DNA from: Candidatus Pacearchaeota archaeon
GTDB taxonomy: Archaea; Nanobdellota; Nanobdellia; Pacearchaeales; GW2011-AR1
Direction: 5' to 3'
Length of the DNA: 52,876 nucleotides
Assembly: GCA_050124795.1 (NCBI GenBank)
Contig: JASFEO010000006.1
Coordinates: 1-52,876, forward strand
The position numbers and the translations under genes are program-made. The notes beneath the pieces were generated by a model. The model saw only the letters and a program-made list of their open reading frames with translations, was not told the origin of the DNA and did not search any database. This document shows, piece after piece, positions 1 through 28,561 of this stretch; position 1 is the stretch's first letter; every line of letters begins with the position of its first letter.

Positions 1-124
1 CAACTTCAAGATCATTTGCGCTTCCCCCGTCGAGACCATCATTCGCAATTCCCACAATATAATGCGCTCCCGTCGCGAACTGCAAAGTCAAAACTAAAAT
101 TAAAAAAATAAAAAAGTGTTTCAT
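1..124 (-). CDS. Partial CDS (5' end only): second copy of the N-terminus of the 614-aa secreted protein
   Basis: ATG at 124, just after the stop of 126..440. Reads MKHFFIFLILVLTLQFATGAHYIVGIANDGLDGGSANDLEV, identical to the start of 15513..17357, and runs off the window. Confidence 0.8.
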   Translation of the reverse strand, partial: MKHFFIFLILVLTLQFATGAHYIVGIANDGLDGGSANDLEV

Positions 125-127
125 TTT
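1..127. repeat. Exact 127-bp direct repeat, copy 1 (copy 2 at 17234..17360)
   Basis: Base-by-base identity from caacttcaag to gtttcatttt; the copies diverge at 128/17361. Confidence 0.95.
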
Positions 128-440
128 AATAGGGCAAAATAATTGTCGCATTTTCTCTCATAAAAATTTCATAATTCACTCCATCTTTTATTGCGAAATT
201 CTCCCCGACACCCCCAAGAAAATTAACATACCCTTTTGATTCATTATTCTCATAAAACGAAACAGCTTCAATTTCAGGATTTAATTTAACTAAATCAGCA
301 ACATAAAAATTTTGACTTGAATTTAATAAAAAAATATTTTTTCCTTTTTCCAAAAAAATCCCCGACGAAGTTAAAGGATAAACCAATGCAATCAAAAAAA
401 CAAAAACAAACAATCCAAAAATAAATTTACTTAATTTCAT
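126..440 (-). CDS. Small secreted or membrane-anchored hypothetical protein
   Basis: 104-aa ORF with an N-terminal hydrophobic signal; overlaps the stop of the upstream gene. Confidence 0.75.
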   Translation of the reverse strand: MKLSKFIFGLFVFVFLIALVYPLTSSGIFLEKGKNIFLLNSSQNFYVADLVKLNPEIEAVSFYENNESKGYVNFLGGVGENFAIKDGVNYEIFMRENATIILPY

Positions 441-2775
441 TTTTCACCTCTCCTGTTTTATTTCCTTCTTTCTCACTGTTTTTTTCTTCCTCTTTCTTGC
501 CTGAAGAATCTCCAACTGTCTGGACAGCTTTTATCTCCCCCTGCGCCTCCATTTCCTTTAATTCGACATCACGCTTTACCTGCAAAAAAACTTTTTCAAT
601 TTTCTTTTTATTTTTATCTGTCAATGCATTGTAAATTTTTTCAAGTTTCAAAAATAAATTCTTATCCCAACTTTTTTTAAGTTCAACCAATCCCGCTTCA
701 AGTCTAAGAATAAAAATTTTGTCGCGCAAAGATTCAACTTTTGAATAAATACTATTCTTCTCATTAAAAGCAAGAGAATTATAATTGCTGCAAATTAAAT
801 TATAATTTTTCTCCATTGACTCAATTGAATCTTTTCCGATTAACTCATTAACCTCTTTTAATCTTTTTGATAAATTAAAATAATTTTCAGAAAAAAGATT
901 TCGCCTTCGATAAAACAAATATCCCCCGACGCACAAAATTAAAACAATCCCTAGAGCAACCCCTGTTGATTTCTTCTTATCCATTTCAAAAAGAAAATAG
1001 CCTGTTATAGAATTTTTACTTTCTTCTTCCATTGCAGTTGAAACAAAAATAACAAAAGTTTCTTTTAATAAATCAATTCCTAAATCTCCTTCAAAAAAAT
1101 AGAAAATATCTTTTGTAGAAGAATCAAAAGACAAAACAGGATCATCCTTTATTACGTCATAATTTAAATTTCCAACTTTAATTTTTGAAGCAGTATCAAT
1201 AACTTCCTTGGGAATTATCTCAATAAAATTTCCGTCATCACTTTTATCAAACTTAGAATTCATCTCCCTTTTTACAACAGAAAAAGTTTTTCTCTGTCCA
1301 TCAGAATATAAAACTTCTGCAACATAAAAATTGCTTATAACCTCAAGACCCCTCTCTTTAATTAAGTCTCTGCTTTTCCCAAAACTTTTATCAAGCATAG
1401 CTTCATCATGCAAAGGATTTGCTTCAATAATCGCTTCCCTCAAATTATCCTCATTAAAATTAATTTCTTTATCACTTCCTTCTCTTAAAATAGCAATGTC
1501 CTCGGGTATTTTCTTTTTTATTGCTTCAATTTTTAACCTGGAAGAAGCAATTTTTTGATCCAGGGCTTGTTTAGTTAAATCCTGTTGCTTATATTTTTCA
1601 ACATCTTTTTTCAAAGAATTAAAACTGCTAATTGCATTATTAATTTCAGAATCAAGTTTCATCAAAGAAAATAATTCTTTCTCCTTATCGGTTTTATAAG
1701 AAATTGCAGATTTAATCTCTTCGACCTCCCCTGTTGCAAAATCAATTTCATTAATCAAACTATTAACCTCCCCAATTAAATTTAAAGATAAACCAGATTG
1801 ACTAACAGTTTCGCTGGTTGAAGAAGGCGCTGCATAAACTTCAATAGATAAATCTCCCTCATTACCTGCATCATCAACTGCAGAAACCTTGTAATAATAT
1901 GTTCGTCCGCTCACAACAGAAGTATCTCTAAAAAATTCCCCCTCAATATCCTCATTATATAAATCTGTATACGCAACTCCTGCAGACTCAGAACGATAAA
2001 GATTAAAATGATTAAATTCCTCGTCGAGATGCCATTTTAATTCAATCCCTCCATTATATCCTTGCGCATTTATTGCAGAAACTGTTTTTGGTTTTATTGT
2101 ATCAATTGCATAAACTGCGCCATTTGTAAGTTCCACATTTTCTTTTGTGCTCCCTTCCAGATCAACAATTCTATCTAAGCGAAAAGAAAGCAAACCTTCT
2201 CCAATTTCATCTTCGACAATCAAATAACCCGCCCAATTCTGACCTGTTCCTGCAAGAGTAAGAGGGTTATAAACAAGCCCGTCAAAAGAATATTTTAATA
2301 TTGGAACAGAAGAGACAGGCTTTGTTAAGTGAAGCGTCACATCAACTCTGCCTGCCGTTAAGGGTGAATCTGAATTAGGAATATTAACCTGTCCTGTAAT
2401 TAAAGGATTAATCAAGAAGCTTAGTTTTAATCGGGTAAGATTATTTTCATTAGAAGAATTTTCTTCAAGACATTTAACATAATAATCATAAACTTTATTG
2501 CCTTCGAGACCAATCAGAATTTTTTTGTGAACAAACCCGAGTGTAGAATCAAAAGAATTTCCCCCGGCACTAAAGCTAAAATTTGCAGTATCCCATTTGC
2601 ACTCTGCTTTAGAATTAGTATGAACCTCCAAGATAATTGACGATGAAAAAAATTCATAAGAACCAGAAGAATCATTATCAAAATTGTAGTCAAATGAAGG
2701 ATTAGCGCTAATAATCCCCCCAAAACAAGAAACTAATAAAAACAAAACCAGAATTAATAAATTAAATTTACTCAT
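427..2775 (-). CDS. Single-pass surface protein with FN3/Ig-like domains, coiled coil and cytoplasmic helical tail
   Basis: Signal peptide; FN3-type TYYYKVSAVDDAGNEG; TM GVALGIVLILCVGGYLFY followed by RRR. Confidence 0.8.
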   Translation of the reverse strand: MSKFNLLILVLFLLVSCFGGIISANPSFDYNFDNDSSGSYEFFSSSIILEVHTNSKAECKWDTANFSFSAGGNSFDSTLGFVHKKILIGLEGNKVYDYYVKCLEENSSNENNLTRLKLSFLINPLITGQVNIPNSDSPLTAGRVDVTLHLTKPVSSVPILKYSFDGLVYNPLTLAGTGQNWAGYLIVEDEIGEGLLSFRLDRIVDLEGSTKENVELTNGAVYAIDTIKPKTVSAINAQGYNGGIELKWHLDEEFNHFNLYRSESAGVAYTDLYNEDIEGEFFRDTSVVSGRTYYYKVSAVDDAGNEGDLSIEVYAAPSSTSETVSQSGLSLNLIGEVNSLINEIDFATGEVEEIKSAISYKTDKEKELFSLMKLDSEINNAISSFNSLKKDVEKYKQQDLTKQALDQKIASSRLKIEAIKKKIPEDIAILREGSDKEINFNEDNLREAIIEANPLHDEAMLDKSFGKSRDLIKERGLEVISNFYVAEVLYSDGQRKTFSVVKREMNSKFDKSDDGNFIEIIPKEVIDTASKIKVGNLNYDVIKDDPVLSFDSSTKDIFYFFEGDLGIDLLKETFVIFVSTAMEEESKNSITGYFLFEMDKKKSTGVALGIVLILCVGGYLFYRRRNLFSENYFNLSKRLKEVNELIGKDSIESMEKNYNLICSNYNSLAFNEKNSIYSKVESLRDKIFILRLEAGLVELKKSWDKNLFLKLEKIYNALTDKNKKKIEKVFLQVKRDVELKEMEAQGEIKAVQTVGDSSGKKEEEKNSEKEGNKTGEVKNEIK

Positions 2776-3998
2776 TTTATCCTCCTTAATTTATCAAGAT
2801 AAATTTTCTTTTCTCTTCGAATTCTGTAAAATAAGAACCCTATTACAAAAATAAACATAACATACACCCCCCAGATTAAAGAAAATCCATTCTTCTCAAT
2901 TGCTTCAAGAACCGAACTTAATTCAAAGGTTTTCTTTCCTTCATAATAAACTCTTCCATTCACAATATATTTTCCTTCACTTTTCGGGGTAAAATAAAAA
3001 TTAAATTCCTCAACACTATTCACAGGAACTTTTGAAAGCGGGCTTTCAAGAATATCTATTATTTTGCCGTTTTTTGTGACCTCTCCTCTAAACTGCGCAT
3101 CAATTTCTTTTTCCCCGGTATTCTTAAAATTAACAATCATCAATGAAGTCTCTCCCACTTCAACTGTCCCCTTAGTTAAAATATTCAATAGAATCCCTCT
3201 TGCGCTTAAGGTCCCTGGTTCCATTACATCAAAAGTCAAAACCTGGGAATAAAAACATTCAGTAACAAATGCATCTGACCAGTATTGTCCAATCTCAAAA
3301 TCTTTTGAATTAAATCTAAATTCCAATTCCTTTTCTGTCGACGGCAAAATTTCATTTCCCAAAAAATCCTCTTCATCAATAATACTTATCTTATCAAAAT
3401 CCCATATATCAAGTTCGACAGTTGGCTTTAAACGGATATTCCCTCCATTCGCAACTTTCATTTTAAGAATAATATCATCCCCCTTCTCTGCAGAAATAAT
3501 CTCCAAATTAGAAGCCACACATTTTGTAATTTCAATATCAGTAACTTCAATGCTAACCGCCAAATCAAGAGAAGATTTTACAGTTCCTACTGCATGTTCT
3601 TCAATTGACTCAGTAGATCCTCCGACTTCAATTCTTAAAAACCCGGTGTAACCCCCATTAGGAATATCGCTCGGAGGCAAAACAGAAACCTTTAATGAAT
3701 AAGGTTCATCCTTTGAAACAGTAAATTCTTCTTCTTCAAAGATAAACCAATCTTCAATATCCCCGCGGGGTTTTAAATTCACTGTCACAGGCAAATCCGA
3801 GTCAGCAGAAATAATAACAGTTCTCTCTGCATACCCCCCTCGCAAAACATCTTTAAAACTAATGCTTGCAGGACTTACCCCTATATTAATTGCAGAAATA
3901 AAATTAACAAATAGGAGTATCAAAATCCCTGCTAAAAAAAATCTTACTCTAACAAATTTTGTTTTCTTTTGTTTTCTTTTGTTTGCTTTTGTTTTCAT
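2772..3998 (-). CDS. Membrane-anchored Ig-fold protein, DUF916/DUF3324-like or PapD-chaperone-like
   Basis: Signal peptide, then IGVSPASISF, NGGNIRLKP and NTGEKE motifs; C-terminal TM with a basic tail. The family resemblance is by eye only. Confidence 0.6.
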   Translation of the reverse strand: MKTKANKRKQKKTKFVRVRFFLAGILILLFVNFISAINIGVSPASISFKDVLRGGYAERTVIISADSDLPVTVNLKPRGDIEDWFIFEEEEFTVSKDEPYSLKVSVLPPSDIPNGGYTGFLRIEVGGSTESIEEHAVGTVKSSLDLAVSIEVTDIEITKCVASNLEIISAEKGDDIILKMKVANGGNIRLKPTVELDIWDFDKISIIDEEDFLGNEILPSTEKELEFRFNSKDFEIGQYWSDAFVTECFYSQVLTFDVMEPGTLSARGILLNILTKGTVEVGETSLMIVNFKNTGEKEIDAQFRGEVTKNGKIIDILESPLSKVPVNSVEEFNFYFTPKSEGKYIVNGRVYYEGKKTFELSSVLEAIEKNGFSLIWGVYVMFIFVIGFLFYRIRREKKIYLDKLRRIK

Positions 3999-4060
3999 TT
4001 TCTTTTGTTCTTTCCAATTTTAAAAAAAGAAAAGGAGTAAAATAAAAAAATAAATTCTCC

Positions 4061-4777
4061 TTATTCAAGTTCTACATAAAAGTAATATGTAGTTGTGGAT
4101 ACATCTCCGTCATGACCGTCTTCTAGAACAAGCATTTCAAAATCATGATCTGCCTGGTCAAAACCATCAACACTTGCATCCTCAAGTAATGACGCAAATA
4201 TAATGTTGGCTGCATCTGTCAAAACAACTTCTTCAAAATGCTGATCAACACTTGCCCCGGTATCGTCATATAATTGAACACTTGAACACTCGTTTTCAGT
4301 AAATTCGACGCTATTTGTATAAAACGCATCATGGTTGTTTACAGCAAAAGTTTCATTCAAACCATCAACATCAGTCGCCCCGATATTATACGAAGATTCA
4401 ATCCCAAGAGAGTCTGTATCCACGTTATAACAGGCAATTGATGCCCATGCTATGCTGCTCGCATTTGAAGCATAAACTTCACCTTCTGGATCTGAAAGAG
4501 ACCAATTATACAAGACATTATCAGATGCATCAGCCAATTGAATTATACCTGTAACATTACCAAAATAACCCTGCCAGGTTTGGGTAGTTGAATAACCTGT
4601 TATTGTTAGTTCGGTTATGTTTCCTGCAAAAGCAGAATTTGCATCAGGACTATCTGCTGGTGCGGTCTCATTTGATCCTCCGACTAAACTTGCTCCGGAA
4701 GGCCCGGCAGCTAAAACCATTGCGCTAAATACGAACACAAAAACTAATGCTAAACTAATTAACAAAAATCTTTTCAT
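4061..4777 (-). CDS. Secreted acidic beta-rich protein, putative filament subunit A
   Basis: Signal peptide, many NxS/T sequons, a Cys pair and no TM anchor; GAGGTGA Shine-Dalgarno; clear paralog of 5534..6253. Confidence 0.7.
   Translation of the reverse strand: MKRFLLISLALVFVFVFSAMVLAAGPSGASLVGGSNETAPADSPDANSAFAGNITELTITGYSTTQTWQGYFGNVTGIIQLADASDNVLYNWSLSDPEGEVYASNASSIAWASIACYNVDTDSLGIESSYNIGATDVDGLNETFAVNNHDAFYTNSVEFTENECSSVQLYDDTGASVDQHFEEVVLTDAANIIFASLLEDASVDGFDQADHDFEMLVLEDGHDGDVSTTTYYFYVELE
4119..4175. repeat. 57-bp exact repeat shared with 5592..5648; a 31-bp patch at 4546..4576 equals 6022..6052
   Basis: Direct comparison of the two paralogous genes. Confidence 0.85.
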
Positions 4778-5385
4778 TATTCTTCACCTCCTTTCAATTC
4801 TGTTAAAACATCTTGCTTCCCGTAAAGAGAAAAAAGATTTTCCAAAGGAATTTTATTAAGTGAATTCAAAGTAACAAAAGAATAATCTATTTTTTTCTCA
4901 AATGTTTTAACAAACAAACCAATTTTTGTCTTCAGCTGTTTAGAGTCTGATAAAATTAATAGCCTCGGTGCAGAAGAATTATCAATAAAAATTCCGTTTA
5001 CCTCTTTTATATTTTCCTGCAGTTTCCAAAAAAGTTTCTCAAAGAAAAAATGAAGGCTTTCATCTTCTAGAAGCCAAATATTCAAAATGCTTTTATGATA
5101 GTCAGAAAGAGCAATTAATTTCTTTTTTGAAAATCCCCGCGCAAGAGCAGTCAGGTAAATAACTTCCTTTGAGATGCTAAACAAAGTTCGCGGTTTTCCT
5201 TTTAATGCCGCCCCTGTTTTTTCTCGCAGCACAATCCCTGCCGCATCAAGAAGTTTTAATTGCTGACTCATATAAGAAACAGTTGTTCCTAACTTTTCTG
5301 CAAGTTCAATCGGGGACATAGGTTTCCTTGCTATTAATTCCAAAATTTCCCAACGCGGAGAACTAAGAAAATCATCAAACCTCAT
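4777..5385 (-). CDS. ArsR-type winged-HTH regulator with an extra C-terminal domain
   Basis: SSPRWEILELIARKPMSPIELAEKLGTTVSYMSQQLKLLDAAGIV followed by the GKPR wing. Confidence 0.8.
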   Translation of the reverse strand: MRFDDFLSSPRWEILELIARKPMSPIELAEKLGTTVSYMSQQLKLLDAAGIVLREKTGAALKGKPRTLFSISKEVIYLTALARGFSKKKLIALSDYHKSILNIWLLEDESLHFFFEKLFWKLQENIKEVNGIFIDNSSAPRLLILSDSKQLKTKIGLFVKTFEKKIDYSFVTLNSLNKIPLENLFSLYGKQDVLTELKGGEE

Positions 5386-5401
5386 TTTTCACCTCTCTTC
5401 A

Positions 5402-5533: not shown

Positions 5534-6253
5534 TTATTGCAGCTCAACATAAAAGTAATATGTAGTAGTCGCTGTGTCTGTTCCATGACCATCTTCTAGA
5601 ACAAGCATTTCAAAATCATGATCTGCCTGGTCAAAACCATCAACACTTCCCCCCTCCAATAGCGACGTGAAAACAACATTACTTCCATCCCATAAAAGAA
5701 CTTCTTCAAAATGATTATCAACCCCCTGCCCGGTTGAATCATATACTTTTGTGCTCATGCATTGTCCTTCAGAAAACTCAATTCCATTTGTATAAAATAA
5801 ATCATGATTATTCCCAAGACTAAAAGTTTCATTAACTCCGTCAACATCATCCGGCGCAATATTATACGAAGACTCCAGTGCCGCGCCATTAATTGAAAAA
5901 TTAAAACAATCAATAGAAGACCAATCAATTGTCCCCCCGGTTGAAGCGTAAATCTCTCCTTCTGGTTCAGCTAAAGACCAATTATAAAACACATTATCAG
6001 ATGAATCAGCCAATTGGATTGTACCTGTAACATTACCAAAATAACCCTGCCATGCCTGAGTAGTTGAATATCCAAAAACATTAAGTTCAGTTACATTTCC
6101 TGCCTGAGCAGCAATACTTGAGGGGGCGTCTGCAGGAGCAGTTTCAGATTTTACCTGCGCAACATTTGCAGCGCCCGACGGAGAAACTCCCAAAACAAAA
6201 CAGGAATAAATTAAAAAAATTATAATTACAAAAAACAAATTAATCACTTTCAT
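5534..6253 (-). CDS. Secreted acidic beta-rich protein, putative filament subunit B
   Basis: Signal peptide; AGNVTELNV..STTQAWQGYFGNVTG...YYFYVELQ; paralog of 4061..4777. Confidence 0.7.
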   Translation of the reverse strand: MKVINLFFVIIIFLIYSCFVLGVSPSGAANVAQVKSETAPADAPSSIAAQAGNVTELNVFGYSTTQAWQGYFGNVTGTIQLADSSDNVFYNWSLAEPEGEIYASTGGTIDWSSIDCFNFSINGAALESSYNIAPDDVDGVNETFSLGNNHDLFYTNGIEFSEGQCMSTKVYDSTGQGVDNHFEEVLLWDGSNVVFTSLLEGGSVDGFDQADHDFEMLVLEDGHGTDTATTTYYFYVELQ

Positions 6254-15123: not shown

Positions 15124-15176
15124 TTGTTCCTCCTTTTTTACAAAACAAAACATATTTAAAAAACTTATTCTCCATT

Positions 15177-17357: not shown

Positions 17358-17360
17358 TTT
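17234..17360. repeat. Exact 127-bp direct repeat, copy 2
   Basis: Identical to 1..127. Confidence 0.95.
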
Positions 17361-20544: not shown

Positions 20545-22934
20545 TCTTTACTTTTTCCTTTATTCTCTTTATTTTGCGGGTTTTCTTTTTTTCCAGATGA
20601 AAATTTTTCTTCCCTTTTTCCCAATTTACCTAGGGCGGTGATCATCCTTTGCTTATCTAAAATAGATTTTAATTTTTCCCCTTCATCTTTTGATAAATTT
20701 TTCTCCACCCATTGTGCAATATCATTCTTGTTTTCATTTACATGAATTCTAAAGACTTCTTCATCCATCGTCGGAAGAGCCCCCAAAAGTTCAGCTGCAC
20801 TACTAACCATAATTCCATTGTCAAAAGTTAGGGCAGCTACTTCTTTTTTTAAGATATCTTCTTTTTTTTGAACAACTTTTTCTGCAACTTCACTTGCTTT
20901 TTCCTTTTTCTCAAACTCCTTCCTCGACTCCTGCGCCTCCTTAACGGATTTCTTAATTTCATCCTCGCTGACAAGTTTAATCTCTCTCTTTGGCGGAGTC
21001 TTCCCCAAAGTTTCCCATGCCTTCTCCACCCTCGGCTTCAGTCCTTCCAGATAAATTTCCACGACGCTAAAATTCCCGCTCATCACTTTATCCTTAACAA
21101 GTTTCAATTCCATTCGAAGATCAAAAACATCCTGCTTTTCACGCTCAAGCGCATCAATCGAAAACTCCAAATCATCAACAATATCATTATACTTATTATA
21201 TTTCTCAAGTTCCTCATCAGGCAATCGACGGGTATTATGCAGGATGGGCCTGAAATTTATGAAATAAGGTCGACCCCGATTATACTCTGCATTCTGAAAC
21301 ATCGCAACTCCAACTTCAGCACGAATCAAAGATTTCAAAAACCCCTCACCATACTTTGTTTTTATCCTCTCCAAATCTCCTTCCTCCAATGTTCTCGTCT
21401 GAACCTCAGTATTAATATTCGCTTTAATCTCTCCAACAAAATCATTCAAAACCTGACTAATCAACATCATCCCTAATCCCCATTTCCTGAATTCACGACA
21501 CGCTCTCTCAACCTGCAAAAATCCCTGCCCGCTTCCACCAAACTTACTTAATAACCTATGAACCTCATCAAACACCAAAAGAACTTTCAATACAGGAGAT
21601 TCCTTGGGATCAGACTTAAAAACTTGCCTGATAACATTTGAAACAAAAATATCCATATCTTTTGGATCAAGTTTATTCAAACTAAAAATCTGAATCTGTC
21701 CGGGGGAAACATATTTATTAATATCAATTAATTCCCTTGCATGAGTAACCTGCCGAACATTTCCTTTAAACGCCCGTGCATCAGTCTCTTTTAATCCGAA
21801 CTTGGGATAATAACTCATCATTTTTTTGTCAGTGCATTTTCTAAGCATCCCGCTCCACTGCGCAGTCGGATCAAACACAATCACAGCAATATTATTCATC
21901 AAAGCCTCTTCAATTATAACCTGCGCAGAAATACTTTTCCCCCCGCCTGTTGCTCCTGCAACAATTGTGTGTGTTGTCAGCCTCGCCGGGTCAAGATAAG
22001 AAGAAACTTTCTTCTCTGCGATGTTTCCTAAATGCAAAAAACCATCTTCTTTTTTAGGAAGAGTCTTCAAATCAAGAACCATCTTGTATTTTTTCTTTGA
22101 TTCTATATGTCTCTTTATAAAATAAAAAATCAAAAACCCCAAAATAAAAATCCCTGCAATAAGAATTAAAACCCAAAGAGGCAAAACACCAAAAAGAAGG
22201 ATCTGCCAAAAATGCTTTTTCAAAACAAAACCTGCTTTATTCTCAATAACAAAAGAATCACTCTCCAAAACAACCTTCAGAATACAATCACCAAAATTTA
22301 TTTCATCAGGAAAGGAAAATGTCTTAAGAATTTGAAAAGAATTCGTTACATTAATCGTTTCTGTTTTAAGGGGAAAAGAATTATTCAAAGAATCCTGCAT
22401 GGAATAAGTAAAAGAAACGTTTTCAATTGCTTCTTTTTTCAACTTATTAATTTTTAAATTAAATTGAAAAAGTGCTCCTTTTACAAAACTTGTTTTTATG
22501 GGCTTAATTTCCATTAAAAAAGGCGAAGTTATTTCCTCTTCAACAACATTTACATTTATAGGAATTTTTTCAATTATATCGCCTTTTATTTCCAAAAGAC
22601 CATTGTAGACACCAACATCTTTCCCAACTATTGTAAAATAAAAAAGAGATTTATTTTCAGAAGAAATTGAAAATCCAACATCGTACTTATCAATGACCTG
22701 CCCAATATCCCCTGAAAAAGAAAAAGAGATTGTTATTCCTGTTTGCTTCAGATTGTTAATTTCAATAAAATCCTCCAAAATAGTTCCGTGCCCAATTGTT
22801 CTGTTAAGACTATTTGTGGAAATAGAATAATCATCAGTCTTTATAGCTGAACCATAAGAAGCTTCTGTTAATGGGTAAAAATTAAAAATTAAAAAAAGCC
22901 CAATAAAAATTAAAATATTTCTTCTAAGAATCAT
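20541..22934 (-). CDS. Membrane-anchored HerA/VirB4-like ATPase 2 with Ig ectodomain and C-terminal DUF5752-like domain
   Basis: Signal peptide, TM, GATGGGKS, DEVHR, REFRKWG; tail FDNG..SSAAELL...FRIHVNENKNDIAQWV. Confidence 0.85.
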   Translation of the reverse strand: MILRRNILIFIGLFLIFNFYPLTEASYGSAIKTDDYSISTNSLNRTIGHGTILEDFIEINNLKQTGITISFSFSGDIGQVIDKYDVGFSISSENKSLFYFTIVGKDVGVYNGLLEIKGDIIEKIPINVNVVEEEITSPFLMEIKPIKTSFVKGALFQFNLKINKLKKEAIENVSFTYSMQDSLNNSFPLKTETINVTNSFQILKTFSFPDEINFGDCILKVVLESDSFVIENKAGFVLKKHFWQILLFGVLPLWVLILIAGIFILGFLIFYFIKRHIESKKKYKMVLDLKTLPKKEDGFLHLGNIAEKKVSSYLDPARLTTHTIVAGATGGGKSISAQVIIEEALMNNIAVIVFDPTAQWSGMLRKCTDKKMMSYYPKFGLKETDARAFKGNVRQVTHARELIDINKYVSPGQIQIFSLNKLDPKDMDIFVSNVIRQVFKSDPKESPVLKVLLVFDEVHRLLSKFGGSGQGFLQVERACREFRKWGLGMMLISQVLNDFVGEIKANINTEVQTRTLEEGDLERIKTKYGEGFLKSLIRAEVGVAMFQNAEYNRGRPYFINFRPILHNTRRLPDEELEKYNKYNDIVDDLEFSIDALEREKQDVFDLRMELKLVKDKVMSGNFSVVEIYLEGLKPRVEKAWETLGKTPPKREIKLVSEDEIKKSVKEAQESRKEFEKKEKASEVAEKVVQKKEDILKKEVAALTFDNGIMVSSAAELLGALPTMDEEVFRIHVNENKNDIAQWVEKNLSKDEGEKLKSILDKQRMITALGKLGKREEKFSSGKKENPQNKENKGKSKE
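20912..21942. repeat. ~1.03-kb near-identical direct repeat, copy 2
   Basis: Matches 9833..10863. Confidence 0.9.
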
Positions 22935-24774
22935 CTGATTTTTCTCCTTTTAATTTATCTCCATTATTTTCTTTTCCATCTGAATTTTTTTGATTTCCCT
23001 CTTTAACATTTTTTTCTTGTGAAGTTTTTTCTGTAGAAGAATTACCCCAAAAACCAGATTCCCCGCCCAGGTCAAATTTCTGCGCAAGATTTTCCATTTG
23101 AATCTTCAATGCCTCCTTATTTTCAAGCATCTCTTTTGTAACTGGTTCGCCATAGCGGTTTTTCATCTTTATAAAAAGGTTAACAGCCTCATCAAATTTC
23201 TTCATTGCCATTAATTTGCGAAGTTCAAGAGATTCAACATACAAATTCAAACCTTTCTTTCTTTCTGCAAGATTTTTATACCTTAAAACAAAGAGAATTG
23301 AAAAGAAAGAAAGAAAAACAATTAACAAAAAAACAGATGAAGATTTGACAAAAGCTAAAAATTTAAACCTTGCTCCTACCTCGAATTCATCTGAACTAAT
23401 AGAAAGGATCGAATCTTCCTGAAATGCTCTGGCATAAAAAAGATAATCCCCAAGAGACATATCTTCAGGAAGAGTAAAATTCCTCATCAAACTTATTGGA
23501 GATGTTAAGACAATCTCCTCATCAGATGAATCATAAACCCGCCCATAAAAATCAATAATAAAAAAATGAAGACCAATAGTTTCCTCAATTAAATCCCCTA
23601 AATTTTCCAGAGAAATATTGGCAACAATAGTTTCACCGGGTTTTACAAATTTATATTTCTCTGGAATTAAAACCGAAACTTCAATATCACTTTCAAGAGG
23701 ATTGACTTCAAACACAATTGGAATTGAAAGATTAGATACAGATTCAACTAAAACCTCTCCAAAATAATGCCCGGGAATAGTCTCTTTTTTTGCGAAAAAA
23801 TCAATTGTAATTTTTTTTGTTTCTCCTGCGGAGACAACAAGGGAATTGTGGCTTAGGATAACAAATTCCCCCAGACCATCAACACTAAAATTAAAAGGTA
23901 ATTCTGTATTTCCAGTATTTGTAATTTCAAGGATTTTTGTTTGCGCCGAACCTTGCTTTACTGAAACAAAAAAAGAAGAAACACTGAGTTTAAACTCATC
24001 AAAATCTTTTTTGAAAATTTTTTTAATTTTCGCTGTAATTGAATCTTCGTCATCGTCGTCGTCAGGGACGATTGTTGAAGGTGGAACAACTCTTGCTGAA
24101 ACTGAAAAATTTTTTACATCGGTGCAATTACTATTGCTGCTTGAATCTCTTGCACAAAAATACCATGATACTATCTGTCCGGAAGACGCGCTTATTTGAA
24201 TTGTCTTTGTAGATTCATTTGTTAATCCTGCAAAATTTCCATTATATCCAAAAGAGCTGGAACTTTGATTAACAAAAAGCGTGTAATTTTTAAGCAAAAG
24301 ATTATCTGTCCAGTTTGCACTAAAAACAACATAATCGTTTTGATAAATAACCCCCTTATCTTTTTCAGGATTATTCCATTTTGGGGGTTCATCATCAACT
24401 GCAATAAAAAGCGAAACTACATTACTACTGGCATTCCCTGCCCCATCATCTGCATAAAAAATAATCTCCCTTATTCCTGAAAATGAATCATTTGGATAAA
24501 AAGAAACTTCTCCCTCGCTAATTACAATAGTTATATCTTCAACAACAGAAGAAGAGTAAATCAGGGTTGCATTTATTGCAGATCCAAAATAATCATCTAA
24601 ATCAAATGCACCCAATAAATTCCCCCCAGACCATGACTGATTAGGGATTATCCCCACAAAAAACGGTGGAGAATTTTCTATTTCTAAACCTGTGCTAACT
24701 GCTAAAAGAGAGTTCATAAAAAAAATAAAAATGAATGCAAGACATATAAATAAAATACCTCTTTTCTCCATCAT
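22924..24774 (-). CDS. Single-pass surface protein with cadherin/Ig-like domains, sharing the ATPases' juxtamembrane module
   Basis: Start moved to MMEKRG; NSPPFF..FDLDDYF cadherin-like segment; LEITNTGN; TM; helical tail without an ATPase. Confidence 0.75.
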   Translation of the reverse strand: MMEKRGILFICLAFIFIFFMNSLLAVSTGLEIENSPPFFVGIIPNQSWSGGNLLGAFDLDDYFGSAINATLIYSSSVVEDITIVISEGEVSFYPNDSFSGIREIIFYADDGAGNASSNVVSLFIAVDDEPPKWNNPEKDKGVIYQNDYVVFSANWTDNLLLKNYTLFVNQSSSSFGYNGNFAGLTNESTKTIQISASSGQIVSWYFCARDSSSNSNCTDVKNFSVSARVVPPSTIVPDDDDDEDSITAKIKKIFKKDFDEFKLSVSSFFVSVKQGSAQTKILEITNTGNTELPFNFSVDGLGEFVILSHNSLVVSAGETKKITIDFFAKKETIPGHYFGEVLVESVSNLSIPIVFEVNPLESDIEVSVLIPEKYKFVKPGETIVANISLENLGDLIEETIGLHFFIIDFYGRVYDSSDEEIVLTSPISLMRNFTLPEDMSLGDYLFYARAFQEDSILSISSDEFEVGARFKFLAFVKSSSVFLLIVFLSFFSILFVLRYKNLAERKKGLNLYVESLELRKLMAMKKFDEAVNLFIKMKNRYGEPVTKEMLENKEALKIQMENLAQKFDLGGESGFWGNSSTEKTSQEKNVKEGNQKNSDGKENNGDKLKGEKSDDS

Positions 24775-24891
24775 AATATTGATTAAACGCAATTTAAATA
24801 ATTTTATTAATAAGATTGTCAACAATGGAATCCTTCTTGCGGGATATTTATCAGAGTAATTGAAAAGCTCTCGAAAGAATTGTTAACAACA

Positions 24892-24913
24892 TTATAAACA
24901 ATAATGTTTATAA
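24892..24913. promoter_or_regulatory. Inverted repeat TTATAAACA-ataa-TGTTTATAA (TATA/operator between divergent genes)
   Basis: Perfect 9-bp arms, 22 bp upstream of the RHH-like gene. Confidence 0.55.
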
Positions 24914-24935
24914 AGTCTTAAATCAAACCTTTAAT

Positions 24936-25145
24936 ATGCCAAAAAAAGACTCTAAAAAGACCAAAATAGGCTCAAAAGAAAAACCCCGAGCAGAAACAGT
25001 GATTGTCAAGGGCACAATAACAAAAAAACAGAGGGAAGTTCTTCAAAAATTCGTGGGGATAATTGGAAGTAATGAACAGGATGTTGTTGGGAAAATCCTG
25101 ACACTCTGGATGTATAATGAAGGACACTTAAAAAACTTAAAATGA
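24936..25145 (+). CDS. CopG/RHH-like small DNA-binding protein
   Basis: VIVKGTITKKQREVLQKFVGIIGSNEQDVVGKIL; ATGA-coupled to the 1139-aa gene. Confidence 0.6.
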   Translation: MPKKDSKKTKIGSKEKPRAETVIVKGTITKKQREVLQKFVGIIGSNEQDVVGKILTLWMYNEGHLKNLK

Positions 25146-28100
25146 AAATAAAAAAATATCTTTCAATAGGTGTGATACTCTTTTTTGTAATGAATATTGT
25201 GATTGCAAATGAAGCCATGACCTCTTCAATAACTCAGGATGAAAGTTCAGAACAAATAAATTCAAACAGTGAACAAGCTTCAGAAGAGATAAATACAGAA
25301 TCGCAAACTCAAAACATAGAGCAGAAAGTAAACCCCGAAGACAATGAAATAAATCCCAAAACAACTAGCCAAGAAAATGATGTAACCCCCCCAACAAAAA
25401 TAACTTCTGAAGAAATTACGGAAAATCCTGAAGAGGTCGCAACAGATACAGAAAATGGAGATATTAATTTAGAAATTGTTTCAAATGCAATAAATGAAAA
25501 ACAAGAAAATGCTTCTAAAGAAGAAGTTGAAAATACAACCGAGATTCAGGAAATTTCTTCAAAAACAAATCAATCATCCGAAATTAAAATAGGTTCAAAT
25601 GATTCTTCCAAAATTAAAGAAATTAATTCACCATCTAAAACCGTGGAGAATTTTTCAGAAGAAAACAATTCAGAAATAGAAAATTTATCTTTAAAAGAAA
25701 ATCAGGGTTATTATATTAATATTGATAATGTCGAAAATTCAAAAAGTTCTCCCTTATCTAATATTGCAAAAACACAAGAAAAGGATGAAAATAATTTTGA
25801 AAATAAAACCCAACTCCTTGCTCTTTACAATAATGATGGAAAAATTGCAATCAAAGGAGAAATCCCTGCAAACTTCACAAATGCCATTACAAAAAAAGAA
25901 AAAATTATAGACTCAAAAAATTTTTCAAAAGAATTCACAATAAAAAGTTCAGAACACCTCAATAGTGAACTAATTGTTTATTCAGATATCCCTGAATCAA
26001 AAAAAGAAAATATAAAAGTTTATTGGAAAAATGAAGATAAAGAAGTAAAAATAAAAGAATATCTTGATGAAAATAATAATGAATTAATTGAAAGAATCTC
26101 ATGGATAGTTCCGCATTTGTCTGAACAGGTTTTTGAAATAAGGATTGAAACAGAAATCTTAGGCAATTCAACAAGTGGAGAAATAGAATTAAACGTTATC
26201 AATTCTCCAAACATAAATGCAAAAAACCCAATTAATTTTAAATTTAGTATTGATTACAATGGAAACAAAACATTAAACTGCAGTTTAAGATTATATAATT
26301 CAACAGATAGCCTAACATACAGCTTTTCAAATGAAAAACCAATTAGTGAAGAATTAGAAATTCCAAATGGAGATTATAATTGGACTGCAACATGCCTTGA
26401 AGAAGAAGACTCTTCAAATAAAGATAGTAAATCAGGAAATTTTACAATAAATGAAGAACCATTAACAATCTATGGAATGCAGGAGATATATTTAACAAAT
26501 GATGATATTGATTTTTCACTTACAGGGGGGTATGATTTAAGCAACATTACATTATTTTACGAGGATGATTCAAATATTGCCTATCAAAAAAATAATACCT
26601 CTGAAAAAAATATCCCTTCTTCAGCAATTCAAAATCCAGGAAAATATATTTTAAAAATTAAATCAACTGGTAATGAAAAACCAACGCAGATAACAACAAA
26701 AGAATTTTCAGTCGCTTCTGCAGAAATAAATCTTGAAAAAGAAAAGATAGAAATTGATGAAGATGCTAAAATAACTATTAAAATAAATTCACCTGATGAA
26801 AAGATCCTATTTGCTAAATTAGAATACGGGGATGAAAATTATGATTACATAGCAGAGAACCAATCTAACTTTATAGATACCTTTACTTATAGTTACCTGG
26901 AAGAAAAAATATATAATCTAAAATTAACAATTTATTTTGACAGCCAACAATTCTCAATAACAAAACAAATAACTGTCTCTGATTCTGACAACACTGACAA
27001 TGAAAAACCAAAGATAACATTAATAGAACCTGCAAATAACGCAAAATTCACAGACCAAACAATAAACTTCAAATACAATGCAACTGACAACACAAAATTA
27101 AAGAACTGTACTTATGATTTAAACTATTATTCCTGCCCGTCATGCTGGGGGAGCGTGGACTACTCAGAAAATAAATCCTTCTCATCAAATGCTGGAGAAG
27201 CGACAATCCATCTTCATGATTTTGATGTTGGAAATTATACCTGGGTTGTGACTTGCTATGACAATTCCAGCAATTCAGAATGGGAATCGAGAAAGTTTGA
27301 AATCATCCCTTCGGGTTTTGAAGCTTTGACTTACTCCGAAGAAACAGAAGTTGAAGAAGCCCAATCAAGGCTCGAGGATTTTCTCACTAAAATAGATTCA
27401 CAGGGACCTGAAGTAAAAGAGGCCTTAAAAGATCTGGGAGTTTATAATGACCTATCAAAAGTCTATTCCGGAAGAATCCAGGCAATAAAAATTTATTTCC
27501 AAACAGGATACAAAACAATTTCCCCAGACAAAAGAGAAGAAAAAAATAAAGAATACTTAGAAGAATTAGAGGAAATTAAAGAAAAAATTCCTTTAGATAT
27601 TGAAATTATAAAAGCAAATGAATATGTAAAAAATTCTGTTTCAGAAAACTTAAAAGAAATAATAAAACAAGCCATTCTCTCAACAACACCGTTAATTGAA
27701 AAAAGATCTCTAAATAAGTTAACTGAAAATATTTTCACAATTCAAAATAAATTCACTGCTTCAGTCACAAGTAAAAAATTAAAAATCAAGTACCAAAATG
27801 AAACCAGAGAAATAACTCTCATCACAAAAAAAATTAAAACAGATGAAGAAGATGCAACTTTTTTTGAATACACTCCAAAAGAATTCGGAAAAATAATATT
27901 CATAACAAAAACAAAAGAACTTGAAAACAATATTTTTGAAATTAATAAAGAAAATATTGAAGATAATAAAATAATTTACTATATTGATGACTTTGTCGAT
28001 ATTGATGAAGTCAAAAAAACAGAAACAATTTTAGTATTAGAAGTTTCTGAAAAAAACAAAAACAACATAACAGGATTCTCAATAATTGATTTAAAACCAA

Positions 28101-28561
28101 ACAATATGTTTAACTATCTTATCTACATTGTTTTTTTAATTGTCCTCCTTTACTCTGCTATTAAAATAAAAGAAAAAATTGATTGGAAGAAATTAAGTAA
28201 AAAAGAAGAGATTTCAAAAAGTCTTGAGTTTATAAAAGAAGCAAAAGAAGCTTTGAAACAAAACCGCCTGGAAGCTGCTAAATATTCTTATTACAAAATA
28301 AAAGAAATTTATTCAAAGCTCTCTGAAAAATGCAAAATTAAAATGCAAAAAGAAATAATTAAAATAAAAATTGGAATTGATAAAAGAGAAATTATAAATT
28401 TAGTAAAAGAATATGAAAACTTAAGGAGGGAAAATCAAATAAGCGAAGCCAAAATAATTTACAGTAAAATACAAAGAACATATAAAACATTGCCAAAAAA
28501 ATACCAGGAAAAAATTTACAGGAGAATTTGCCCGGCATCTGTTGATGATTTTTTTAAATGA
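25142..28561 (+). CDS. Large single-pass surface glycoprotein with Ig/PKD-like domains
   Basis: Signal peptide, acidic low-complexity region, WIVPHLS, two GxYxWxxxC Ig repeats, TM and a helical tail; C-terminal half paralogous to 427..2775. Confidence 0.8.
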   Translation: MKIKKYLSIGVILFFVMNIVIANEAMTSSITQDESSEQINSNSEQASEEINTESQTQNIEQKVNPEDNEINPKTTSQENDVTPPTKITSEEITENPEEVATDTENGDINLEIVSNAINEKQENASKEEVENTTEIQEISSKTNQSSEIKIGSNDSSKIKEINSPSKTVENFSEENNSEIENLSLKENQGYYINIDNVENSKSSPLSNIAKTQEKDENNFENKTQLLALYNNDGKIAIKGEIPANFTNAITKKEKIIDSKNFSKEFTIKSSEHLNSELIVYSDIPESKKENIKVYWKNEDKEVKIKEYLDENNNELIERISWIVPHLSEQVFEIRIETEILGNSTSGEIELNVINSPNINAKNPINFKFSIDYNGNKTLNCSLRLYNSTDSLTYSFSNEKPISEELEIPNGDYNWTATCLEEEDSSNKDSKSGNFTINEEPLTIYGMQEIYLTNDDIDFSLTGGYDLSNITLFYEDDSNIAYQKNNTSEKNIPSSAIQNPGKYILKIKSTGNEKPTQITTKEFSVASAEINLEKEKIEIDEDAKITIKINSPDEKILFAKLEYGDENYDYIAENQSNFIDTFTYSYLEEKIYNLKLTIYFDSQQFSITKQITVSDSDNTDNEKPKITLIEPANNAKFTDQTINFKYNATDNTKLKNCTYDLNYYSCPSCWGSVDYSENKSFSSNAGEATIHLHDFDVGNYTWVVTCYDNSSNSEWESRKFEIIPSGFEALTYSEETEVEEAQSRLEDFLTKIDSQGPEVKEALKDLGVYNDLSKVYSGRIQAIKIYFQTGYKTISPDKREEKNKEYLEELEEIKEKIPLDIEIIKANEYVKNSVSENLKEIIKQAILSTTPLIEKRSLNKLTENIFTIQNKFTASVTSKKLKIKYQNETREITLITKKIKTDEEDATFFEYTPKEFGKIIFITKTKELENNIFEINKENIEDNKIIYYIDDFVDIDEVKKTETILVLEVSEKNKNNITGFSIIDLKPNNMFNYLIYIVFLIVLLYSAIKIKEKIDWKKLSKKEEISKSLEFIKEAKEALKQNRLEAAKYSYYKIKEIYSKLSEKCKIKMQKEIIKIKIGIDKREIINLVKEYENLRRENQISEAKIIYSKIQRTYKTLPKKYQEKIYRRICPASVDDFFK

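What the first reader, a model, noticed from the sequence alone, without database searches (positions are those of the whole stretch)
1..28561. Candidate undescribed ATPase-coupled surface filament/adhesion system in a DPANN-like archaeon
Seen: about 28 kb made almost entirely of secreted subunit-like paralogs, multidomain adhesin-like proteins, four membrane-anchored tandem-Ig proteins (two fused to a HerA/VirB4-like ATPase), coiled-coil proteins and small regulators. I see no class III signal-peptide pilins, PilB/TadA ATPase, TadC, archaellum genes, or relaxase. Known: Firmicute WxL/DUF916 clusters and chaperone-usher loci pair unanchored subunits with a chaperone-like partner, but neither uses an ATPase fused to the chaperone. 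Inference: this is a distinct appendage assembly or host-attachment machine, possibly coupled to macromolecule transport.
Basis: partly seen in the sequence, partly recalled or inferred. Interest (0 to 1): 0.9.

Follow-up and report, generated by a model that had tools for sequence, protein, structure and literature searches.

The report
DPANN surface fibre and motor cluster
This gene cluster of a tiny symbiotic archaeon encodes small secreted proteins that probably chain into a surface fibre, adhesins that end in the same domain, and membrane motor ATPases that carry that domain outside the cell; it is a strong candidate for the unknown host-contact structure of these organisms.

Summary
Window 1-28561 is a run of 21 surface, membrane and coiled-coil genes. 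It ends at 28561 and runs off the contig start on the left.

- **The ATPases are not undescribed, and are not ecto-ATPases.** Both are cytoplasmic HerA/DUF87-type domains behind a membrane helix. They are short members of the published SPEARE family of DPANN surface proteins, whose function is untested.
- **The subunit family (SUB) is the new part.** It is about 240 aa and Sec-secreted, with no Pfam, NCBIfam, PDB or fold match. A profile search of a 1.84-billion-protein library found 1273 representatives.
- **The SUB domain occurs in three settings.** It also ends the adhesins (hhalign E 1.9e-31) and opens the ectodomain of the 1190-aa ATPase (E 6.9e-10).
- **Three SUB copies model as an open head-to-tail chain.** The N-terminal arm pairs with the neighbour's sheet (ipSAE 0.72, best control 0.00).
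- **Gene order is conserved** in loci whose record titles name Pace-, Woese- and Nanoarchaeota. SUB is present in 84 of 301 sampled genomes.

Best reading (0.55): a strand-donation fibre, capped by adhesins and tethered to a SPEARE-type ATPase. What the ATPase does is unknown.

This scan had already noted the same module on other DNA, in five other genomes.

The parts
1..124 (-). First 41 codons of an adhesin gene that runs off the contig start. They are identical to the N-terminus of the 614-aa protein. The gene probably continues as the >2776-aa adhesin at the end of contig C15.
   Evidence: Repeat 1-127 = 17234-17360, 100%. tblastn: 41 of 41 aa identical. In L013, L061, L065, L040 and L021 an adhesin N-terminus follows the p104 homolog. 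The C15 adhesin lacks its N-terminus. The join itself is inferred.
126..440 (-). p104: small secreted protein with an N-terminal hydrophobic helix.
   Evidence: Hydrophobic helix at 6-24. Homologs in 8 of 79 loci, always after the p782 homolog. No Pfam hit.
427..2775 (-). p782: type-I membrane protein with an ectodomain, a helix at 603-621 and a cytoplasmic coiled-coil tail. Its C-terminal part is paralogous to that of p1139.
   Evidence: Match to p1139: 24% identity, E 4e-6. Homologs in 13 of 79 loci.
2772..3998 (-). p408: membrane-anchored protein with three Ig-like (ASH-type) domains. It is a candidate assembly or anchor factor; that role is inferred.
   Evidence: Pfam ASH, E 6.7e-6, below the cut-off. 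AF2 pLDDT 88: three beta-sandwiches plus a C-terminal helix. Foldseek top hits are ciliary ASH-domain proteins at 1.5e-13 and CEP192 SPD-2. Homologs in 12 of 79 loci.
4061..4777 (-). SUB1: secreted subunit, 238 aa.
   Evidence: See the full report.
4777..5385 (-). ArsR/MarR-type winged-helix regulator lying between the two SUB genes.
   Evidence: Pfam HTH_5, MarR_2 and HVO_A0114. An HTH homolog follows the first SUB in 19 of 22 type-A loci.
5534..6253 (-). SUB2: secreted subunit, 239 aa.
   Evidence: 61% identical to SUB1, E 5e-107.
6495..8246 (-). p583: type-I membrane protein with an Ig-like ectodomain, a helix at 385-403 and a cytoplasmic domain of about 165 aa with no family match.
   Evidence: Homologs in 13 of 79 loci, lying between cc286 and SUB.
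8316..9176 (-). cc286: cytoplasmic coiled-coil protein, the conserved partner gene downstream of the ATPase.
   Evidence: 35 of 79 loci, 47-74% identical. The ATPase lies directly upstream in 16 of 17 loci with enough flank. Only generic coiled-coil matches.
9169..9504 (-). p111: small basic cytoplasmic protein whose gene overlaps cc286.
   Evidence: Homologs found in 13 loci ORFs. No Pfam hit.
9570..13142 (-). ATP1190: helix 27-45, SUB-like domain about 56-246, CarboxypepD_reg-like and Ig-like domains, helix 674-692, then a cytoplasmic HerA/DUF87-type (SPEARE-type) ATPase.
   Evidence: Pfam. Topology. SUB-like domain: hhalign probability 96.6%, E 6.9e-10. 15 full-length orthologs, 47-59% identical over about 1100 aa. 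Walker A at 756 and Walker B at 881.
13192..13854 (-). p220: uncharacterised protein with a basic, hydrophobic C-terminal half.
   Evidence: One homolog among the loci ORFs. An ORF of similar size lies at the same position in G250. Membership of the module is weak.
13989..14306 (-). p105: small membrane-anchored protein with a Cys-rich ectodomain (8 Cys).
   Evidence: Homologs in 12 of 79 loci, next to the p295 homolog.
14266..15153 (-). p295: cytoplasmic protein, low-complexity and coiled-coil.
   Evidence: Homologs in 14 of 79 loci, beside the ATPase gene.
15513..17357 (-). p614: secreted adhesin with a CARDB domain and a C-terminal SUB-type domain that has no free N-terminal arm.
   Evidence: Pfam CARDB 317-420, E 1.8e-10. 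hhalign, SUB against the adhesin C-terminus: probability 99.9%, E 1.9e-31. 32 N-x-S/T sequons.
17609..18418 (+). SpoIIM-family polytopic membrane protein.
   Evidence: Pfam SpoIIM, E 3e-13. Only 4 of 79 loci have a homolog. Membership is uncertain.
18456..20123 (+). p555: type-I membrane protein with a signal peptide and a helix at 529-547.
   Evidence: Homologs in 10 of 79 loci, beside the ATPase modules.
20125..20544 (-). p139: small cytoplasmic protein whose start overlaps the stop of ATP797.
   Evidence: Homologs in 4 of 79 loci.
20541..22934 (-). ATP797: short Ig-like ectodomain, helix 255-273, and the same SPEARE-type ATPase.
   Evidence: Pfam DUF87 and HerA_C. 98.6% DNA identity to ATP1190 over 1068 nt. 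PDB HerA 4d2i, E 1.1e-8.
22924..24825 (-). p633: type-I membrane adhesin-like protein with ASH/HYDIN-type Ig domains. Its gene overlaps the start of ATP797.
   Evidence: Pfam hits below the cut-off. Weak matches to both ATPase ectodomains. Helix 496-514.
25142..28561 (+). p1139: large type-I membrane adhesin-like protein with a helix at 989-1007 and a cytoplasmic coiled-coil tail.
   Evidence: Homologs in 31 of 79 loci, some through shared Ig repeats.

Best explanation
The cluster encodes a conserved surface-fibre system of Pace-, Woese- and Nanoarchaeota.

**Proposed mechanism**
1. SUB proteins of about 215 aa (mature) leave the cell through Sec.
2. They polymerise head to tail. The N-terminal arm and edge strand of one subunit (residues about 37-65) pair with the sheet of the next (64-90 and 213-237).
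3. Adhesins (614 aa here, and the >2776-aa protein on C15) end in the same domain. They keep the acceptor side, but a CARDB domain replaces the free arm. They would therefore join the fibre as caps, following the logic of FimH in chaperone-usher pili.
4. The 1190-aa SPEARE-type protein carries a diverged SUB-like domain in its ectodomain, directly after its first membrane helix. This would tether the fibre to the membrane and to a cytoplasmic HerA-type ATPase ring.
5. The coiled-coil proteins, the Ig-type membrane proteins and the ArsR/MarR regulator are accessory.

**Shown**
- The shared domain in three contexts.
- Conserved gene order.
- Co-occurrence of the SUB and ATPase families.
- Topology of the membrane proteins.
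- A modelled SUB-SUB interface that passes its controls.

**Inferred**
- That a fibre actually forms.
- Which end the adhesin occupies.
- That the ATPase ectodomain binds SUB.
- Any role for ATP.
For: **Shared domain**
- SUB against the adhesin C-terminus: probability 99.9%, E 1.9e-31.
- SUB against the ATP1190 ectodomain: probability 96.6%, E 6.9e-10.

**SUB trimer model**
- ipSAE 0.72 against a best control of 0.00.
- The runs agree in at least 98% of contacts, and partner pLDDT is at least 86.
- In the tool's calibration, 20 of 30 solved pairs reached the mark, against 1 of 23 single chains.
- The contacts describe an open chain, not a ring.
- The arm has low confidence in the monomer model (pLDDT 47-60 for residues 21-50).

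**Conservation**
- Interface residues: 0.75, against 0.65 for the rest (p 0.003).
- Acceptor side alone: 0.86.

**Gene order**
- 49 of 58 loci with enough flank have either cc286 or an adhesin C-terminus upstream of SUB.
- The ATPase precedes cc286 in 16 of 17 loci.
- A second SUB follows in 18 of 19 adhesin modules.

**Paralog classes**
- The second-position SUB forms its own clade, holding 31 of 31 such genes (support 1.0). Specialised subunits fit a fibre.

**Co-occurrence (hand tally)**
- Of 45 genomes with a close SUB (E <= 1e-50), 36 have the ATPase at E <= 1e-100. Six more have it at 1e-68 to 1e-83.

**Domain position**
- In the long proteins among the best 150 representatives, the SUB domain always lies at the extreme C-terminus.
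Against: - **No fibre has been observed, and no RNA or protein data exist.**
- **The fold is unplaced.** It matches no known strand-exchange subunit. TasA and a cannula-like tube appear only at E > 1.
- **The complex score is the model's own confidence.** It was run with three copies and my own alignment, which differs from the tool's calibration.
- **The ATPase is not always needed.** Of 39 genomes that have only a distant SUB relative, 3 have the ATPase at E <= 1e-100.
- **SUB is not always needed either.** 15 of 54 ATPase-positive genomes have no SUB match, and most of these carry the ATPase on a giant protein.
- **SUB was not found in the 13 other genomes of the window's own family**.
- **Three conserved N-x-S/T sites (N53, N74, N91) lie in the predicted interface.** Glycans there could clash.
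- **The ATP1190 SUB-like domain starts about 10 residues after the first membrane helix.** Its geometry depends on whether that helix is cleaved off, which I could not test.
- **Binding of SUB to the adhesin, to the ATPase or to p408 was not modelled.**
Confidence: 0.55

Rival explanations
1. Docking module, not a fibre. The SUB domain would be a self-associating docking unit. It would fix small proteins and adhesins onto the ectodomain of the SPEARE-type ATPase as a short cap or coat, without long polymers.
For: The shared domain occurs in three contexts. The SUB-SUB interface model fits short oligomers as well as fibres. There are only two to eight matches per genome.
Against: The modelled contacts are open-ended head to tail. 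A conserved free arm and a distinct second-position paralog class are what polymer systems show. SUB relatives also exist in genomes without the ATPase.
Confidence: 0.17
2. Transport apparatus. Following Reva et al. 2023, the SPEARE-type ATPase would drive DNA or protein across the membrane, into or out of a host, with SUB and the adhesins forming the contact or conduit.
For: The ATPase belongs to the HerA-FtsK pumping superfamily. Its layout of two helices around a loop resembles coupling proteins. The ATPase domain is 70-83% identical across the lineage. The proposal is published (PMC10266531, passages read).
Against: No VirB4 CagE_TrbE_VirB domain was found in the genome, which is 90% complete. 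No relaxase, pilin or VirB6-like family was found among the 20 ORFs. All matches to VirB4, TraD and CedD families are far below their cut-offs and cover little beyond the P-loop. No channel protein is evident.
Confidence: 0.13
3. Cell-wall layer. SUB would be an S-layer or sheath protein, and the membrane proteins its anchors.
For: SUB is secreted, rich in sequons, well conserved and self-associating in the model.
Against: SUB is present in only 84 of 301 sampled genomes and in none of 13 others in the same family. It has no membrane anchor. The same domain caps giant adhesins. The model gives a linear chain.
Confidence: 0.05
4. Secreted lectin or enzyme. SUB would act on host surface glycans, and the shared domain would be a binding module.
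For: The family has invariant Asp, His and Glu residues, with DxDG-like and DGH motifs.
Against: No enzyme or lectin family or fold matches. The most conserved stretch is the predicted subunit interface.
Confidence: 0.05
5. No joint machine. The region would be only an island of unrelated surface-protein genes.
For: Several genes (p220, SpoIIM, p139) are rarely conserved next to SUB.
Against: Gene order is conserved across loci, and SUB occurs in 58 of 225 sampled genera. One domain is shared by three gene classes. Genes overlap at p633/ATP797/p139 and at p111/cc286.
Confidence: 0.05

Closest known systems
SPEARE giant surface proteins of Nanohaloarchaeota (Hamm et al. 2019, PMC6642349; re-annotated by Reva et al. 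2023, PMC10266531)
   Same: A secreted adhesion-type ectodomain, one membrane helix near the C-terminus, and a conserved cytoplasmic helicase-like ATPase. The window's ATPase domain is 53% identical to a 2896-aa protein labelled Nanohaloarchaea. It also matches at E 1e-117 to 1e-222 inside open frames of 3177-9416 aa in genomes of the same class.
   Different: The window's proteins are short (797 and 1190 aa). The 1190-aa form carries a SUB-like domain and sits in an operon with free SUB subunits. Neither feature is mentioned in the passages I read. The second VirB4-type ATPase gene that Reva reports downstream is not present here.
Chaperone-usher pili with two-domain tip adhesins (FimH, PapG). 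The comparison is recalled, not tested.
   Same: The logic matches. Small secreted subunits join by strand donation, the adhesin ends in a subunit-type domain without its own donor arm, and there are specialised subunit classes.
   Different: There is no sequence or fold relation. There is no usher or soluble PapD chaperone, no outer membrane, and an ATPase is linked to the system.
Archaeal strand-donation filaments: threads (PMC9715654), bundling pili (PMC9245690), cannulae (PMC12518558) and Tat fimbriae (PMC11821415). I saw these in a search listing with abstract starts only.
   Same: Subunits exported by general secretion pathways (Sec or Tat), not as type IV pilins, and proposed to polymerise by donor strands. 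The listed abstracts name no ATPase for these filaments.
   Different: No detectable homology to SUB. TasA 8aur and the Hyper2 tube 9bab appear only at E > 1. Nothing in what I read couples any of them to a membrane ATPase.
Pam pili of CPR bacteria (preprint, PMC13278184; abstract read)
   Same: A lineage-specific strand-exchange pilus of an ultrasmall episymbiont, found in a conserved operon with putative chaperones.
   Different: It is bacterial and has Ig-like pilins. Relation to SUB was not tested. The abstract mentions no ATPase.
HerA of the HerA-NurA DNA-end resection system
   Same: It is the best solved-structure and NCBIfam match of the ATPase core (4d2i E 1.1e-8; HerA_Thermprot E 3.2e-10).
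   Different: The scores are far below the family cut-off (39 bits against 800). The protein is membrane-anchored. No NurA family appeared among the 20 ORFs scanned.

Membership tests
SPEARE-type membrane ATPase proteins | Most of the protein is extracytoplasmic, with a membrane helix toward the C-terminus and a cytoplasmic C-terminal region | tested here: met
   Helices at 674-692 (ATP1190) and 255-273 (ATP797), each followed by Lys/Arg. Sequons run at 2.5 against 0.2 per 100 aa.
SPEARE-type membrane ATPase proteins | A conserved intracellular helicase-like (ResIII/VirB4/HerA-type) ATPase domain, homologous to that of the nanohaloarchaeal proteins | tested here: inconclusive
   Pfam DUF87, HerA_C and ResIII hits. 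53% identity to a 2896-aa partial protein labelled Nanohaloarchaea, and about 50% to proteins labelled Aenigm-, Micr- and Altiarchaeota. I did not compare it with the published NAR1_1133 or SVXNc_0300 sequences themselves.
SPEARE-type membrane ATPase proteins | Giant size (thousands of residues) with laminin-G and many adhesion domains | tested here: not met
   797 and 1190 aa, with no laminin-G hit. Giant forms do exist in genomes of the same class.
Chaperone-usher pili | PapD-family periplasmic chaperone and an outer-membrane usher | tested here: not met
   No PapD_N, PapD_C or Usher hit among the 20 ORFs. p408 resembles ASH-type Ig proteins in general.
Type IV pili / archaellum | Class III signal peptide pilins, a PilB/ArlI ATPase and a PilC/ArlJ platform in the locus | tested here: not met
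   No such Pfam hits in 1-28561. The SUB hydrophobic N-terminus varies, and conservation begins after it. T2SSE genes lie on other contigs.
Type IV secretion / Ced-type DNA transfer | VirB4 ATPase with a CagE_TrbE_VirB domain | tested here: not met
   PF03135 is not found in the genome, which is 90% complete. VirB4, TraD and CedD NCBIfam hits score 20-28 bits against cut-offs of 366-600.
TasA / bundling pili, threads, cannulae | Sequence or fold similarity of the subunit to a solved member | tested here: not met
   The profile search of PDB sequences gives a best E of 1.6, to an unrelated protein. Foldseek finds no match at E <= 0.001.
HerA-NurA | Soluble HerA scoring over the family cut-off, with a NurA partner | tested here: not met
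   39 bits against a cut-off of 800. The protein is membrane-anchored. No NurA hit among the neighbours.
Strand-donation fibre (a mechanism class, not a family) | The subunit self-associates head to tail through a terminal strand that is disordered in the monomer | tested here: inconclusive
   The model passes its controls (0.72 against 0.00), and the arm has low pLDDT in the monomer. This is prediction only.

The most novel reading that the evidence does not exclude
The SUB fibre and the SPEARE-type ATPase form one machine of a new class. A strand-exchange fibre or tube is capped by adhesins, and its membrane base is itself a hexameric HerA-type pump. The pump would use ATP to move DNA or protein between the DPANN cell and its host, or to pull on the fibre. 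That would give archaeal episymbionts their own contact-dependent transport system, unrelated to type IV pili and type IV secretion.
Probability: 0.15. Interest if true: 0.9.

Novelty: new variant of a known kind. Interest (0 to 1): 0.72.

Why it matters
How Pace-, Woese- and Nanoarchaeota attach to and draw on their hosts is unknown. SPEARE proteins are the main published candidates, and they have no tested function.

This locus ties a SPEARE-type ATPase to a large unannotated family of small secreted proteins (1273 representatives) and to giant adhesins, all through one shared domain.

That yields concrete experiments:
- Express SUB and look for fibres.
- Test whether SUB binds the adhesin tail and the ATPase ectodomain.
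- Search for the fibre by cryo-ET in enrichments.

It would also add a new subunit fold to the strand-donation filaments. It would be the first such filament linked to a membrane ATPase, as far as the papers I searched show.

Tried and rejected
**Searches that found nothing for SUB**
- Foldseek against PDB and against viral models: no match at E <= 0.001.
- PDB sequence profile, NCBIfam and the ESM Atlas: nothing beyond the family's own unnamed clusters.

**Coiled-coil protein cc286**
- Only generic coiled-coil look-alikes. I considered an ESCRT-III/PspA-like reading of its N-terminus, but no search supports it.

**p408 as a PapD-type chaperone**
- The fold search returns ASH-type Ig proteins in general, so the chaperone role stays a guess.

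**Expression**
- No RNA holder was listed. I did not lay reads.

**Complexes not modelled**
- SUB with an adhesin, with the ATPase ectodomain or with p408. The single complex job went to the SUB trimer.

**Literature**
- Seven searches. One search was badly formed and useless.
- No listing or passage described the small subunits.
- Find-searches in PMC11606122 and PMC8204110 gave nothing relevant.
The SPEARE supplements (Hamm SI Table S3 and Fig. S17) may list Woesearchaeota homologs that I could not see.

**Horizontal transfer of the cluster**
- Its GC content (0.30-0.355) is near the genome's contigs (about 0.32), so there is no signal.

Full report
**Setting.** The window is the first 52,876 bases of contig C6 of a 1.06-Mb, 38-contig archaeal genome bin with about 30% GC. 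To the right of 28561 lie ordinary genes: a TctA transporter, UPP synthase, both DNA polymerase D subunits, Cdc6/Orc1, a serine recombinase and ribosomal proteins. The cluster therefore ends at 28561. On the left it runs off the contig.

**The observation.** It is confirmed.
- ORF calling gives 20 genes plus a truncated one in 1-28561.
- The two 238/239-aa proteins (SUB) are 61% identical (E 5e-107).
- The 1190-aa and 797-aa proteins carry a DUF87/HerA domain with intact Walker A and B motifs.
- Their ATPase parts share 98.6% identical DNA over 1068 nt. This points to recent gene conversion.
- A hydrophobicity scan gives a signal or anchor helix plus a second helix followed by Lys/Arg in eight proteins: 408, 782, 583, 633, 1139, 555, 797 and 1190 aa.
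- N-x-S/T sequons in ATP1190 run at 2.5 per 100 aa before the second helix and 0.2 after it.

Together, the last two points place the ectodomains outside and the ATPases in the cytoplasm.

**A second piece of the same locus.**
- Bases 1-127 equal 17234-17360 exactly. They are the first 41 codons of an adhesin gene that leaves the contig.
- Contig C15 ends with a >2776-aa adhesin that lacks its N-terminus. Two more SUB genes and a 333-aa secreted protein follow it.
- In five other genomes, the homolog of the 104-aa gene is followed by such an adhesin N-terminus.

I infer that C15 joins C6 at this point. The join is not shown.

**The subunit family.**
- SUB has no Pfam or NCBIfam hit.
- It has at least 677 relatives in the 5.8-billion-protein set, and any name a source gives them is 'hypothetical protein'.
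- A profile search of 1.84 billion representatives gives 1273 at E <= 0.001 and 905 at E <= 1e-10.
- Among the best 150, most are 230-300 aa. The long ones (343-2359 aa) all have the domain at the very C-terminus.
- Forty aligned members share 51% mean column identity, two invariant Cys, four conserved N-x-S/T sites and a C-terminal YYFYVELE.
- The hydrophobic N-terminus varies, and conservation starts after it. This fits a cleaved Sec signal, not a type IV pilin.
- The AlphaFold model is beta-rich (pLDDT 80.8, pTM 0.69), with a low-confidence arm (pLDDT 47-60 for residues 21-50).
- It matches nothing at E <= 0.001 in PDB or in viral models, nor by sequence profile.

**One domain in three contexts.** Profile-profile comparison used family alignments built from related loci.

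| Comparison | Probability | E-value |
|---|---|---|
| SUB vs last 200 residues of the adhesins | 99.9% | 1.9e-31 |
| SUB vs residues 50-262 of the 1190-aa ATPase family | 96.6% | 6.9e-10 |
| Adhesin C-terminus vs ATPase N-terminal domain | 84% | 7e-6 |

Comparisons against single window sequences were weaker (E 2.3e-5 and 0.0026). In the 614-aa adhesin, the SUB-type domain follows a CARDB domain directly (Pfam 317-420), so it has no free arm.

**Self-association.**
- Three copies of mature SUB scored ipSAE 0.72 (runs 0.69, 0.72, 0.72), against 0.00 for the best of three controls.
- The runs agree in at least 98% of contacts, and partner pLDDT is at least 86.
- In the tool's calibration, 20 of 30 solved pairs reached the mark, against 1 of 23 single chains. 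My job differs from that calibration: three copies, and my own alignment.
- Residues 37-65 of one copy pair with 64-90 and 213-237 of the next, while the third copy barely touches the first. That is an open chain, not a ring.
- Interface residues are more conserved than the rest (0.75 against 0.65, p 0.003). The acceptor side scores 0.86.

This supports polymerisation by strand donation. It does not show it.

**Gene order.** A scan of one genome per species returned 79 loci. Their record titles name Pace-, Woese- and Nanoarchaeota, with one 'Diapherotrites' and several plain 'archaeon'. Two arrangements recur:
- **Type A:** ATPase, (p111), cc286, (p583), SUB, regulator, SUB, then p408, p782, p104 and an adhesin. 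This is the window's own order.
- **Type B:** adhesin, SUB, SUB. This is the arrangement on C15.

Counts:

| Test | Result |
|---|---|
| Loci with at least 2.5 kb upstream of SUB that fit either arrangement | 49 of 58 (27 cc286, 22 adhesin) |
| ATPase directly upstream of cc286 | 16 of 17 |
| Regulator following the first SUB | 19 of 22 |
| Second SUB following in type-B modules | 18 of 19 |

The second-position SUB forms one clade holding 31 of 31 such genes (support 1.0). It is therefore a specialised subunit class.

**Co-occurrence.** I searched 301 sampled genomes of the phylum. Every genome row printed lies in the window's class or closer.
- SUB is found in 84 of 301 genomes and 58 of 225 genera.
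- The ATPase family reaches E <= 1e-100 in 54 genomes, by my hand tally.
- 39 genomes have both (odds ratio 11.7). Related genomes are not independent, so I give no weight to the p-value.
- Of 45 genomes with a close SUB (E <= 1e-50), 36 have the ATPase at E <= 1e-100 and six more at 1e-68 to 1e-83.

Results against obligate coupling:
- 15 ATPase-positive genomes have no SUB match.
- Only 3 of 39 genomes with a distant SUB relative have the ATPase.
- None of the 13 other genomes in the window's own family has SUB. One of them (G250) has the 1190-type gene at a contig edge, with three adjacent ORFs of similar sizes to the window's p220, p105 and p295.

One unpublished genome (G243) is included in these tallies.

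**What the ATPase is.**
- Its best solved relative is HerA (4d2i, E 1.1e-8).
- NCBIfam hits to HerA, CedD, VirB4 and TraD all fall far below their cut-offs.
- The domain is 70-83% identical in the best 120 of 879 proteins of similar length. The source names given are mostly 'DUF87 domain-containing protein' or 'hypothetical protein'.
- In genomes of the same class it also lies inside open frames of 3177-9416 aa. In the two I cut out (G039, G001) it sits near the C-terminal end.
- It is about 50% identical to long proteins labelled Nanohaloarchaea, Aenigm-, Micr- and Altiarchaeota.

Notes from earlier in this scan pointed me to SPEARE proteins. I read passages of two papers:
- **Hamm et al. 2019** describe a giant ectodomain, a helix near the C-terminus and a conserved intracellular region. 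They report relatives in Woese-, Aenigm-, Micrarchaeota and Altiarchaeales.
- **Reva et al. 2023** re-annotate that region as a VirB4/TraG-like ATPase and propose a secretion 'straw'.

The window's two proteins are therefore short members of a described but untested kind. The genome has no VirB4 CagE_TrbE_VirB domain.

**Other parts.**
- The 408-aa protein models as three Ig-like domains (pLDDT 88). Its best matches are ASH-domain proteins of cilia (E 1.5e-13) and CEP192. It is a membrane-anchored Ig protein, and a chaperone role is only a guess.
- cc286 is 47-74% identical across 35 loci but has only coiled-coil look-alikes.

**Reading.** I favour a strand-donation fibre of SUB, capped by adhesins through the shared domain and tethered to the 1190-aa SPEARE-type protein (0.55). 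The role of ATP is open. The rivals are a short docking complex, a transport apparatus, an S-layer, a lectin or enzyme, and a mere gene island.

**Novelty.**
- Seven literature searches found no description of the small subunits or of their link to SPEARE proteins. Supplements were closed.
- The closest analogies are chaperone-usher pili (recalled), archaeal threads, bundling pili, cannulae and Tat fimbriae (listing only), and the CPR Pam pilus (abstract).
- This scan had already reported the same module in five other genomes, with the same shared-domain reading. My analysis reached that reading before I saw those notes.

Noticed in passing
window 9833-10900 and 20912-21979 (minus strand): The ATPase domains of the two genes share 98.6% identical DNA over 1068 nt (15 mismatches), while the flanks diverge. 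This suggests recent gene conversion between the paralogs.
   Followed up: partly
window 1-127 and 17234-17360: An exact 127-nt repeat lies at the contig edge. The assembly probably broke here because two adhesin genes share an identical 5' end.
   Followed up: partly
L081 (G039:C4) and L082 (G001:C1); also G077:C10 and G071:C8: In genomes of the same class, the same ATPase domain lies inside open frames of 5222-9416 aa. In the two I cut out (G039, G001) it sits near the C-terminal end. These are SPEARE-type giants.
   Followed up: partly
window 47845-48636 and 50249-50785: A serine recombinase (Resolvase plus Recombinase domains) and a second ORF with only the Recombinase domain lie in a low-GC stretch (0.23-0.29) with many small ORFs. 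This may be an integrated element.
   Followed up: no
window 31882-32886: An acylphosphatase domain is fused to the N-terminus of undecaprenyl-diphosphate-synthase-type prenyltransferase.
   Followed up: no
window 41298-43600: Cdc6/Orc1 lies next to the lowest-GC stretch of the window (0.234 at 42-44 kb) and close to both DNA polymerase D subunits. This is a likely replication origin region.
   Followed up: no
window 6495-7000 (C-terminal about 165 aa of the 583-aa protein): A conserved cytoplasmic domain behind the membrane helix has no family match.
   Followed up: no
L001:8912-9913 (G000:C15): A 333-aa sequon-rich secreted protein follows the two SUB genes on C15. It has no Pfam hit and no BLAST match to SUB.
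   Followed up: no
window 20541-20900 (C-terminal tail of ATP797): After the ATPase domain there is an extra module of about 90 aa. Pfam PF19027 is precomputed for some long homologs of this family (P0398, P0411, P0418). I did not test it on this protein.
   Followed up: no
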